DNA of 64,000 bases from Escherichia phage EC100: sequence record NC_105587.1; one strand, written 5' to 3'. The translations under genes and the position numbers were made by a program. Below, one piece after another: positions 41,016 to 41,788 of this stretch (positions within the stretch are counted from its first letter, which is position 1; the number at the start of each line of letters is the position of its first letter). The notes beneath the pieces are model-generated. The model worked only from the letters and a program-made list of their open reading frames with translations, did not search any database and had not been told where the DNA came from.

Positions 41016-41483
41016 TTAAGTTTTAGTGACAACAGGTTTATAGAATGTATGTCCCTTAATCTTAGTTGTTTTCTTAAATTTCTTTGTCCAGTAAGGTTTA
41101 TCTTTACCACTATGGAAGTATAGTGCTCCATGTGTAGGATCTTGTGGTAAATCAACGTAGTATATCACTCTAGCTAAATTCTTAGCGGTTTGCCAAGCCT
41201 CATCAGTTTTATCAACTTTTGGTCTCTTAGATACCCAAGAGAACTGGTTAGACTGATATACTACTTTACAGTAGGAATCTGGGAATTTACCGGAGTTTAC
41301 ACGGTTTTTAGTAACATGTGCAATCGCCGTCATTCCCTTTATGCCCTCACCACGACTTTCGAAATAGATATTTTTAGCAATGCAATCTATTTCTTTTGCA
41401 TCGTGCGACGCCTGACTACTAAAGCTGAAGGTAAGGGCAGCTACTAAAAGCAAAGCTGCCTTCATTCTTTTTACTCCTGCCAA
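41016..41483 (-). CDS. secreted cell-wall hydrolase (SleB/CwlJ-like)
   Basis: 155 aa; signal peptide; 'NIYFESRGEG...AIAHVTKNRV...QSNQFSW' matches SleB-type fold. Confidence 0.6.
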   Translation of the reverse strand: MAGVKRMKAALLLVAALTFSFSSQASHDAKEIDCIAKNIYFESRGEGIKGMTAIAHVTKNRVNSGKFPDSYCKVVYQSNQFSWVSKRPKVDKTDEAWQTAKNLARVIYYVDLPQDPTHGALYFHSGKDKPYWTKKFKKTTKIKGHTFYKPVVTKT

Positions 41484-41788
41484 TCATATTCAACACGATT
41501 GGGATTTTCTTTATACCCTAAGTCAAGCAAATCATTACGCATATTTTGCTTAGCTACTGGGTTCGAGGTTACTAGTACCACTTTCTTTGGTCTCTGCCCA
41601 AATTCTAAGAGTAAACGAAGAATTTGATAACCTTCCATACCATCTACAGCCAAGTCATTATCCATATAAACGAAGTGGCCTGTGGTATCAGTTTTATTCA
41701 GAAACTCTACAGCGGCTTCTGGGGTTCGAATGATAATGTCCATTCCGTGAAGATTACGCACATCATCAATCAAAATATGAAAAGTCAT
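41471..41788 (-). CDS. CheY-like receiver (REC) domain-like protein (tentative)
   Basis: 105 aa; 'HILIDD', 'VYMDNDLAVDGMEGYQILRLL', 'VVLVTSNP' resemble REC acidic pocket, phospho-Asp loop and T/S position. Confidence 0.4.
   Translation of the reverse strand: MTFHILIDDVRNLHGMDIIIRTPEAAVEFLNKTDTTGHFVYMDNDLAVDGMEGYQILRLLLEFGQRPKKVVLVTSNPVAKQNMRNDLLDLGYKENPNRVEYDWQE

What the first reader, a model, noticed from the sequence alone, without database searches (positions are those of the whole stretch)
41016..41788. Operon pairing a receiver-domain-like protein with a secreted SleB-type cell-wall hydrolase
41471-41788 (105 aa) has the hallmarks of a CheY-like receiver: acidic N-terminal pocket (HILIDD), a D-x-D...DG loop (VYMDNDLAVDGMEG) and a T/S position (VVLVTSNP). 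Its stop overlaps the start of 41016-41483, a signal-peptide protein with a SleB/CwlJ-like peptidoglycan hydrolase signature (NIYFESRGEG...KNRV...QSNQFSW). A periplasmic murein hydrolase made early, separate from the endolysin, and co-transcribed with a possible phospho-acceptor is an unusual combination. It could remodel the wall for DNA transfer or exclusion, or interfere with host two-component signalling.
Basis: inference. Interest (0 to 1): 0.55.

Follow-up and report, generated by a model that had tools for sequence, protein, structure and literature searches.

The report
Two unlinked early T5-phage genes
Both genes are real and were already annotated in phage T5: a truncated receiver-fold protein of the predicted-enzyme family cREC and an exported SleB-like cell-wall enzyme. 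They sit side by side only in T5-like phages and do not appear to work together.

Summary
The window is the left 64 kb of a T5-like phage, 100% identical to Escherichia phage EC122.

- **How it differs from a signalling receiver.** It keeps the Asp pocket (D8, D9, D43, D45, T74). It lacks helix alpha1, helix alpha5 and the conserved Lys, and it fails the Response_reg threshold.
- **Downstream gene.** ORF 41016-41465(-) is T5.083, annotated "sleB". It has a cleavable signal peptide followed by a Hydrolase_2 domain (E 2e-25), and its model matches the SleB catalytic domain (TM up to 0.78). The catalytic Glu36 and a Cys28/Cys66 pair are conserved. Its likely start is ATG 41465, so the two genes are 5 nt apart and do not overlap.
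- **The pairing.** It is limited to T5-like phages (Demerecviridae). None of 73 non-T5 Hydrolase_2 loci carries cREC, and 1 of 70 non-T5 cREC variants carries Hydrolase_2.
- **Within T5-like phages.** The pair is split by Sequestin or HNH genes, or by 2.7 kb, and the two genes have diverged to different degrees.

The receiver fold and the exported hydrolase are confirmed. The two-component-signalling idea and a functional module are not supported. Interest is low.

The parts
41819..41847 (-). Sigma-70-type promoter (TTGCTA, 17 nt, TATAAT) that drives the two-gene unit
   Evidence: Consensus scan, 10 of 12 matches. The homologous position in T5 is annotated as an early promoter.
41471..41788 (-). 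Standalone cREC-domain protein of 105 aa (T5.084 homologue). It has a truncated receiver fold and is a predicted cytoplasmic phosphoesterase.
41016..41465 (-). Exported SleB/Hydrolase_2-type muralytic enzyme of 149 aa (T5.083 'sleB' homologue)
   Evidence: Pfam PF07486 E 2.2e-25. phmmer to SleB 4f55 E 2.6e-8. AF2 pLDDT 92. Foldseek to 4f55/4fet, TM 0.71-0.78 normalised to the target. Invariant E36.
41409..41465 (-). Predicted Sec signal peptide (MKAALLLVAALTFSFSSQA, cleavage before S20)
   Evidence: By inspection of the sequence: K2, then a 13-residue hydrophobic core, then S-Q-A. A small-x-Ala site is kept in homologues. 80 of 82 viral homologues carry an N-terminal hydrophobic segment. No dedicated signal-peptide predictor was available.
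40979..41007 (-). Next promoter (TTGCTT, 17 nt, TATAAT; homologue of T5 P-D/E33) directly after the hydrolase stop codon
   Evidence: Read from the sequence. Annotated in T5. It falls below the consensus-scan threshold used.
55601..57099 (+). Context only: SIR2 (55601-56437) and HAD_SAK_2 (56593-57099), the published sirtuin-HAD predicted RNA-repair module of T5-like phages
   Evidence: Pfam SIR2 E 9e-25 and HAD_SAK_2 E 2.9e-20. Described for the T5-like phage SP15 in PMC9503650.

Best explanation
These are two independent early accessory genes of a T5-like phage. They share a promoter only because of the local gene order.

Gene 1 is a standalone cREC domain. It is a cut-down receiver fold that keeps the phosphate-handling Asp pocket (D8, D9, D43, D45, T74, N76, plus R11 and R21). 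It has lost helix alpha1, helix alpha5 and the switch Lys. It most likely acts in the cytoplasm as a small phosphoesterase on cyclic-phosphate nucleotides. Candidate substrates are 2',3'-cyclic RNA ends left by host anticodon or toxin RNases, and NAD/ADP-ribose-derived cyclic products. It would act alongside the phage's SIR2 and HAD_SAK_2 enzymes. It is not a phospho-acceptor in host two-component signalling.

Gene 2 is exported by Sec, cleaved after Ala19, and acts in the periplasm as a single-domain SleB-type glycan-strand-cleaving enzyme (probably a lytic transglycosylase). It uses Glu36 and is probably stabilised by a Cys28-Cys66 disulfide. I read it as a holin-independent accessory wall-remodelling or lysis-assisting enzyme that complements the L-Ala-D-Glu peptidase endolysin encoded 20 kb away.

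Shown here: family membership, folds, conserved residues, gene layout and lack of conserved linkage. Inferred: both enzyme activities, export, the disulfide, early timing and biological roles.
For: Identity and folds:
- The window is 100% identical to phage EC122 and 93% to T5.

Independence of the two genes:
- Of 80 viral Hydrolase_2 loci, only the 7 T5-like ones have cREC within 6 kb.
- All 26 T5-like cREC loci have Hydrolase_2 nearby, and none of 20 non-T5 loci do.
- In the pooled census, 1 of 70 unique non-T5 cREC variants has Hydrolase_2 nearby.
- KVP40-like Vibrio phages carry cREC without Hydrolase_2.
- Inside Demerecviridae the pair is interrupted by Sequestin (L004, KKP_3711), by an HNH gene (L134), or by 2.7 kb (phage My1, L130).
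- In L005 cREC is 68% nt identical to the window while the hydrolase is 86%. In phage S132 cREC is 57% aa identical and the hydrolase 85%.

cREC function:
- In L104 cREC is followed by an AAA_33 kinase and a T4-type RNA ligase.
- SIR2 and HAD_SAK_2 are present in the window.
- An Rv2179c-like exoribonuclease lies 1.4 kb upstream, and the same family lies close to cREC in L096.
- The published prediction is in PMC7824862 and PMC9503650.

Hydrolase:
- All 82 viral homologues keep E36 and C28, and 80 of 82 have an N-terminal hydrophobic segment.
- Hydrolase_2 is a common lysin domain in phages of Gram-negative bacteria (PMC8223927).
- A SleB-fold T6SS effector is toxic in the E. coli periplasm, and its toxicity depends on the catalytic Glu (PMC11148199).
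Against: - No biochemical data exist for either protein. I found no experimental paper on cREC or on T5.083/T5.084.
- My census of the immediate neighbours of 70 non-T5 cREC variants is heterogeneous. RNA-repair partners are rare: AAA_33 in 2, RNA ligase in 1, YqeY in 1.
- The first 64 kb of this phage show no homologue of the L104 RNA ligase or kinase.
- Proximity to tRNA arrays is only weakly enriched over the control set: 27/70 against 21/67, and 20/70 against 10/67 for four or more tRNAs.
- One non-T5 contig (L198) does have a Hydrolase_2 gene next to a frameshifted cREC. There the order is reversed and the hydrolase lacks a signal peptide.
- Bacillus SleB prefers muramic-delta-lactam cortex, so activity on E. 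coli murein is inferred rather than shown.
Confidence: 0.7

Rival explanations
1. The small protein is a genuine phospho-accepting receiver that drains or perturbs host two-component phosphorelays, and it is functionally coupled to the co-transcribed periplasmic hydrolase.
For: The fold is receiver-like. The acidic pocket, the Asp at the D57 position and the Thr at the T87 position are kept. The two genes are 5 nt apart behind one promoter.
Against: - The Response_reg score is below its cut-off: 12.5 against 30.2 bits.
- There is no alpha1, which is the canonical docking helix for histidine kinases, and no alpha5.
- The K109 equivalent is not conserved.
- The family is reported never to occur with histidine kinases (PMC7824862).
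- The linkage to the hydrolase is not conserved and is broken within the family.
- The predicted cellular compartments differ.
Confidence: 0.04
2. cREC is primarily a counter-defence enzyme. It destroys NAD-derived cyclic immune signals (Thoeris-type cADPR isomers or ADPR cyclic phosphate) rather than repairing RNA ends.
For: - A PF21825 Sequestin gene sits directly beside cREC in two divergent T5-like lineages (L004 on both sides, KKP_3711 downstream). Sequestin is an experimentally shown 3'cADPR sponge that blocks Thoeris (bioRxiv 10.1101/2025.07.12.664507).
- Iyer et al. proposed cADPr as one possible substrate (PMC7824862).
- Most cREC loci lack RNA ligase or kinase neighbours.
Against: - Only two lineages show the Sequestin link, and none of the 79 further cREC loci does.
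- The same site also accepts HNH genes, so it may simply be an insertion hot spot.
- L104 shows a classical kinase-ligase repair context.
- There is no biochemistry.
Confidence: 0.2
3. The SleB-like protein is a true second endolysin. It accumulates in the periplasm in a restrained state and is released at lysis time, as secreted or SAR endolysins are, rather than remodelling the wall early.
For: The best PHROG matches are annotated as endolysin (phrog_938, E 5.5e-30). Hydrolase_2 is a typical lysin domain (PMC8223927). Nearly all viral homologues have an N-terminal export segment. A second endolysin far from the holin has been noted in T5-like Salmonella phages (PMC11180984).
Against: - The gene is 20 kb from the holin, endolysin and spanin genes.
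- It lies behind promoters annotated as early.
- The 13-residue hydrophobic core and the S-Q-A site look like a cleavable signal peptide, not a SAR anchor (sequence inspection).
- Close homologues in other phages also sit among nucleotide-metabolism genes.
Confidence: 0.3

Closest known systems
cREC domain family (Pfam PF20274), defined by Iyer, Anantharaman, Krishnan, Burroughs and Aravind (2021 PMC7824862; 2022 PMC9503650)
   Same: It scores above the Pfam threshold. It has the same invariant DD and DxD aspartates, the same standalone size of about 100 aa and the same phage distribution. The window also carries the sirtuin-HAD module those authors described for T5-like phage SP15.
   Different: Nothing sets it apart from the family. 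In this phage it is not adjacent to NAD or RNA-repair genes; the SIR2 and HAD genes lie 14 kb away on the other strand. T5-like members have Asn instead of the commoner His between the two aspartates (DND against DHD).
Classical response-regulator receiver domains (CheY, Spo0F; Pfam PF00072)
   Different: It has no alpha1 and no alpha5, and no conserved Lys at the K109 position. It scores below the Pfam threshold and has no kinase partner.
Bacillus SleB catalytic domain (PDB 4F55, 4FET), a germination-specific lytic transglycosylase
   Same: Sequence identity is 28-30%, and TM is 0.71-0.78 normalised to the target. The ESRGE motif with the catalytic Glu is shared.
   Different: It has no N-terminal peptidoglycan-binding domain and is far below the SleB equivalog cut-off (50 against 236.5 bits). 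It has a Sec signal peptide and a Cys pair that Bacillus SleB lacks. Its host has no spore cortex.
T5.083 ('sleB') and T5.084 of bacteriophage T5
   Same: These are the direct homologues, in the same order and spacing and with the same flanking promoters.
   Different: None of substance. The region is 93% identical to T5 at the DNA level.
SleB-fold T6SS effector T6EC3 (PMC11148199)
   Same: It is a SleB-like catalytic domain that acts in the periplasm of Gram-negative bacteria, and its toxicity depends on the catalytic Glu.
   Different: It is delivered by a T6SS, has an immunity protein, and is related only at the level of fold. It was not compared directly here.

Membership tests
cREC (PF20274) | Match to the family HMM above the curated threshold | tested here: met
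   56.8 bits against a cut-off of 27, E 3.8e-15, covering profile positions 2-86 of 88.
cREC (PF20274) | Conserved aspartate pairs after strand 1 (DD) and after strand 3 (DxD) | tested here: met
   D8, D9, D43 and D45 are invariant in 71 of 71 family representatives and are present in the window protein.
cREC (PF20274) | Divergent receiver (Rossmann-like) fold | tested here: met
cREC (PF20274) | Genomic association with RNA-repair or NAD/ADPr-processing genes, and never with histidine kinases | tested here: inconclusive
   SIR2 and HAD_SAK_2 are in the same genome but 14 kb away. The kinase and RNA-ligase context was seen in L104. Overall the neighbours are heterogeneous. No kinase was seen among the listed top families of the neighbour census (25 of 46 families shown), but the window was not screened exhaustively.
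cREC (PF20274) | Hydrolysis of cyclic phosphates | not testable with these tools
   This is a prediction only. No experimental paper was found.
Response-regulator receiver (PF00072) | Match to the family HMM above the curated threshold | tested here: not met
   12.5 bits against a cut-off of 30.2, E 0.17.
Response-regulator receiver (PF00072) | Acidic pair, phospho-acceptor Asp at the end of strand 3, and Thr/Ser at the end of strand 4 | tested here: met
   D8/D9 are present. D43 aligns with CheY D57 and T74 with CheY T87.
Response-regulator receiver (PF00072) | Conserved Lys at the end of strand 5 (CheY K109) | tested here: not met
   hhalign places N95 at the K109 position. The family column there reads K13, N10, S10, I9 of 71 sequences.
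Response-regulator receiver (PF00072) | Complete (beta-alpha)5 fold with alpha1 and alpha5 | tested here: not met
   DSSP on the model shows residues 8-17 as coil between strands 1 and 2, and a short hairpin instead of alpha5.
SleB/CwlJ cell-wall hydrolase domain (PF07486 Hydrolase_2) | Match to the family HMM above the curated threshold, over the full domain | tested here: met
   89.7 bits against a cut-off of 27, covering profile positions 1-100 of 100.
SleB/CwlJ cell-wall hydrolase domain (PF07486 Hydrolase_2) | SleB catalytic-domain fold with the catalytic Glu | tested here: met
   Foldseek to 4f55/4fet, probability 1.00. E36 lies in the FESRGE motif aligned to GESRGE of SleB. E36 is invariant in 82 of 82 viral homologues.
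SleB spore cortex-lytic enzyme (TIGR02869 equivalog) | Full-length orthology, including the N-terminal PG-binding domain | tested here: not met
   50.3 bits against a cut-off of 236.5, and only profile positions 79-201 are matched.
Canonical holin-dependent endolysin | Encoded in the lysis cassette next to holin and spanin | tested here: not met
   Holin, endolysin and spanin lie at about 20-23 kb in the collinear phage Elw, roughly 20 kb from this gene.
SAR (signal-anchor-release) endolysin | Uncleaved, weakly hydrophobic N-terminal transmembrane segment of about 18-22 residues | tested here: not met
   The hydrophobic core is 13 residues (A3-F15) and is followed by S-Q-A, a signal-peptidase-I-type site that is kept in homologues. 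This was judged by inspection, not with a trained predictor.

The most novel reading that the evidence does not exclude
The cREC protein is a new kind of counter-defence enzyme. It would use receiver-type aspartate chemistry to destroy NAD-derived cyclic immune signals (Thoeris cADPR isomers or ADPR cyclic phosphate), working as the enzymatic partner of sponge proteins. In two divergent T5-like lineages a validated 3'cADPR sponge gene (Sequestin) is inserted directly beside it. The neighbouring hydrolase plays no part in this reading.
Probability: 0.15. Interest if true: 0.65.

Novelty: already known. Interest (0 to 1): 0.22.

Why it matters
As posed, the finding matters little. Both genes are annotated in T5 and its relatives, both families are described, and the pairing is a lineage-specific gene order.

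Two residual points have some value. First, cREC is a widespread phage family (232 clusters at 50% identity) with no experimental characterisation, and T5 is a tractable model carrying a single standalone copy. Second, almost every phage homologue of this Hydrolase_2 subfamily carries an export signal, and several sit among early or nucleotide-metabolism genes rather than in lysis cassettes. This points to a recurrent holin-independent periplasmic muralytic function whose role has not been tested.

Tried and rejected
- **Broad cREC locus search.** The search for related loci with the 71-sequence cREC alignment failed because no stretch was conserved enough. It failed again on genome contigs with the 17-sequence alignment. 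Bacterial and prophage contexts were therefore not sampled. Two sub-alignments worked on viral contigs.
- **tRNA linkage.** I first took cREC's position next to tRNA arrays (T5-like, KVP40-like, L097) as support for a tRNA-repair role. A control with non-T5 Hydrolase_2 loci showed only weak enrichment: 39% against 31% with any tRNA, and 29% against 15% with four or more. I give this argument little weight.
- **Neighbour census.** The census of 136 genes flanking 70 cREC variants found no dominant partner.
- **Small upstream ORFs.** A 90-aa ORF upstream of Hydrolase_2 in L011 and a 63-aa ORF in L013 were tested as possible hidden cREC genes. Neither had a Pfam hit.
- **RNA ligase or kinase in the window.** tblastn with the L104 RNA ligase and kinase found nothing. 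Only the L104 metallophosphoesterase and phosphatase have homologues, at about 17.5-19.1 kb.
- **Literature.** Searches for T5.083/T5.084 and for experimental cREC work found nothing relevant. The two SleB structure papers are not held, so Glu151 as the SleB catalytic residue rests on my own recollection plus PMC11148199.
- **Upstream intergenic region.** The Rfam search found nothing.
- **Sequestin.** No homologue was found in the window.
- **Cys28-Cys66 distance.** It could not be measured because model coordinates are not exposed.

Full report
**What the window is.** The 2.6 kb around the finding are 100% identical to Escherichia phages EC122, EC105, EC104 and EC142, and 93% identical to bacteriophage T5. 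In all, 445 phage records match, nearly all of them T5-like. Window coordinates equal EC122 coordinates, so the window is the left 64 kb of a Tequintavirus genome. In T5 the two ORFs are T5.084 (hypothetical) and T5.083. AY587007 annotates T5.083 as "sleb: spore cortex-lytic enzyme precursor" and RefSeq as "endolysin". Phage vB_EcoD-Elw already annotates the pair as [quoted passage not shown] and "cell wall hydrolase".

**Checking the observation.**
- Both ORFs are present with the quoted motifs.
- The hydrolase most likely starts at ATG 41465, 8 nt after an AGGAG, not at TTG 41483. This is the start annotated in T5 and Elw, and it gives the MKAALLL N-terminus shared by homologues.
- The genes are therefore 5 nt apart and do not overlap.
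- A TTGCTA-17-TATAAT promoter (41847-41819) lies 31 nt upstream of the first ATG. T5 annotates it as an early promoter.
- The next T5 promoter (P-D/E33 homologue, TTGCTT-17-TATAAT, 41007-40979) begins 9 nt after the hydrolase stop.
- No terminator-like site was found between the two genes.
- The holin-endolysin pair and the spanin gene lie about 20 kb away.

The description of a two-gene early unit separate from the lysis cassette therefore holds.

**The receiver-like protein.**
- It matches Pfam PF20274 (cREC_REC) at E 3.8e-15, and Response_reg only at E 0.17, below that family's threshold.
- An exhaustive HMMER scan found 232 representative clusters at E ≤ 0.001. Almost all are standalone proteins of about 100 aa.
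- In an alignment of 71 of them, D8, D9, D43, D45 and G53 are invariant. R11, D17, R21, G47, P67, N76 and Y92 are nearly so, and position 74 is always Thr or Ser.
- The model departs from a signalling receiver in two ways. Residues 8-17 form a loop where alpha1 should be, and a short hairpin stands in place of alpha5.
- hhalign against CheY maps D43 to D57, D45 to N59, G53 to G65 and T74 to T87. It places CheY K109 opposite N95, a column with no conservation.
- From established structures of kinase-receiver complexes (my own knowledge: Spo0F-Spo0B, HK853-RR468), alpha1 is the main docking helix. Its absence argues against canonical phosphotransfer.
[quoted passage not shown] They predicted it opens 2',3'-cyclic RNA ends or cyclic ADP-ribose derivatives (PMC7824862, PMC9503650), and the 2022 paper states that it remains experimentally uncharacterised. 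I found no later experimental work.

**The hydrolase.**
- Pfam Hydrolase_2 matches at E 2.2e-25 over the full domain.
- phmmer finds the SleB catalytic domains 4F55 and 4FET at E about 1e-8, with FESRGE aligned to GESRGE.
- The AlphaFold2 model has pLDDT 92. Foldseek matches only SleB, with TM 0.71-0.78 normalised to the target.
- It is not a SleB orthologue. It scores 50 bits against the 236.5-bit equivalog cut-off and lacks the N-terminal peptidoglycan-binding domain.
- The N-terminus (K2, a 13-residue hydrophobic core, S-Q-A then S20) looks like a cleavable Sec signal. The small-x-Ala site recurs in homologues.
- Among 82 homologous ORFs from viral contigs, 80 have an N-terminal hydrophobic segment and all keep Glu36 and Cys28.
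- Cys28 and Cys66 are conserved in the phage family and absent from Bacillus SleB. This fits a periplasmic disulfide, but that is an inference.
- Published work supports plausibility. Hydrolase_2 is a frequent lysin domain in phages of Gram-negative bacteria (PMC8223927). A SleB-fold T6SS effector kills E. coli from the periplasm in a Glu-dependent way (PMC11148199). A "second endolysin far from holin" with a SleB domain has been noted in T5-like Salmonella phages (PMC11180984).

**Is the pairing a module?** This is the core of the finding, and the answer is no.
- Of 80 viral-contig loci encoding a Hydrolase_2 relative, only the 7 T5-like ones have cREC within 6 kb. The other 73 do not.
- Of 46 cREC loci, all 26 T5-like ones have Hydrolase_2 nearby and none of the 20 others do.
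- A second scan added 79 non-T5 cREC loci, one of which has Hydrolase_2 nearby.
- Pooled and de-duplicated, 1 of 70 unique non-T5 cREC variants has a Hydrolase_2 neighbour.
- That exception (L198) has the reverse gene order, a hydrolase without a signal peptide, and a frameshifted cREC.
- KVP40-like Vibrio phages carry cREC with no hydrolase nearby.
- Close Hydrolase_2 homologues in other phages sit among Thy1, metallophosphoesterase and dGTP-diphosphohydrolase genes, with no cREC.
- Inside Demerecviridae the adjacency is repeatedly broken. A Sequestin gene separates the two in L004 and in Enterobacter phage KKP_3711. An HNH endonuclease gene separates them in L134. In Pectobacterium phage My1 they are 2.7 kb apart, with DUF7022 and other genes between them.
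- The two genes also have different histories. Against L005, cREC is 68% nt identical and the hydrolase 86%. In phage S132 the values are 57% and 85% at the protein level.
- One product is predicted to be cytoplasmic and the other periplasmic.

**What cREC may do here.**
- The window also encodes SIR2 (55601-56437) and a "Swiss Army Knife" RNA-repair HAD phosphatase (56593-57099). This is the sirtuin-HAD module that Iyer et al. described for the T5-like phage SP15.
- An Rv2179c-like 3'-5' exoribonuclease lies 1.4 kb upstream of cREC. The same family lies two genes from cREC in the unrelated contig L096.
- In L104, cREC is followed by an AAA_33 kinase, a T4-type RNA ligase and two phosphoesterases. 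The two phosphoesterases have homologues elsewhere in the window.
- These contexts favour an RNA-end or nucleotide phosphoesterase role. The support is thin, however.
  - The neighbour census is heterogeneous.
  - No RNA ligase homologue was found in the window.
  - The apparent tie to tRNA arrays is only marginally above a control set.
- The Sequestin adjacency in two lineages is the most interesting clue. Sequestin (PF21825) is an experimentally validated sponge for the Thoeris signal 3'cADPR (bioRxiv 10.1101/2025.07.12.664507). This keeps open the alternative that cREC attacks NAD-derived cyclic signals. The same site also accepts HNH genes, so it may only be an insertion hot spot.

**Verdict.** Its central idea is not supported, whether read as a functional pairing or as interference with two-component signalling. 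Both genes are known, annotated members of described families in a sequenced phage, so the finding counts as already known and of low interest. The remaining value is that neither protein has been studied experimentally.

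Noticed in passing
window 41850-42230 (minus strand), between the T5.085 homologue and the cREC promoter: This 381-nt stretch contains no ORF of 20 aa or more on the minus strand upstream of 41952 and is conserved better than the flanking genes. It is 94.8% identical to L005, where cREC is 68% and the hydrolase 86%. It is present in 449 T5-like records and is almost never annotated. It folds with z = -5.7. A 27-nt inverted repeat (41859-41885 and 42203-42229) closes the structure. 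A divergent relative shows some compensatory changes in local hairpins, but the overall covariation term is unfavourable. There is no Rfam match. It may be a structured RNA or a cis-acting site.
   Followed up: partly
L004 4763-5546 and L144 (Enterobacter phage KKP_3711) 3315-3572: PF21825 Sequestin genes (a validated anti-Thoeris 3'cADPR sponge family) are inserted directly next to cREC in two divergent T5-like phages, between cREC and the hydrolase. No Sequestin gene is present in this window.
   Followed up: yes
window 55601-57099 (+): SIR2 and HAD_SAK_2 genes, a predicted NAD-dependent RNA-repair module, followed by two tandem DUF7415 genes at 57102-57933.
   Followed up: partly
window 40343-40777 (-) and 43176-43877 (-): RNA-related neighbours of the pair. 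The T5.081 homologue matches phrog_1460, annotated 'tRNA amidotransferase'; it looks YqeY/GatB-like but has no Pfam hit. An Rv2179c-like 3'-5' exoribonuclease lies at 43176-43877. A YqeY gene is also the immediate neighbour of cREC in one non-T5 locus.
   Followed up: partly
window 40158-40229 (-) and 35872-35946 (-): Two tRNA-like Rfam matches (35.5 and 40.3 bits) that ARAGORN did not call. The first lies in the region T5 annotates as the stable 'RNAX' and as a pseudo-tRNA.
   Followed up: no
P0114 (273 aa), matching Salmonella phage Kenya-K44 at 38582-38878: In some T5-like phages the cREC ORF is fused to, or annotated together with, an N-terminal HNH_3 homing-endonuclease domain. Homing-endonuclease activity at this site could explain the divergent cREC alleles.
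   Followed up: partly
L198 5468-6213: This is the only non-T5 contig in which Hydrolase_2 and cREC are adjacent. The order is reversed, the hydrolase lacks a signal peptide, and cREC is split by a frameshift.
   Followed up: partly
Flanks of non-T5 cREC loci (alignment A7): Four of 136 immediate neighbours of cREC carry a ribosomal L7/L12 C-terminal-like domain, and three carry UDP-glucose dehydrogenase domains. Neither association is explained.
   Followed up: no
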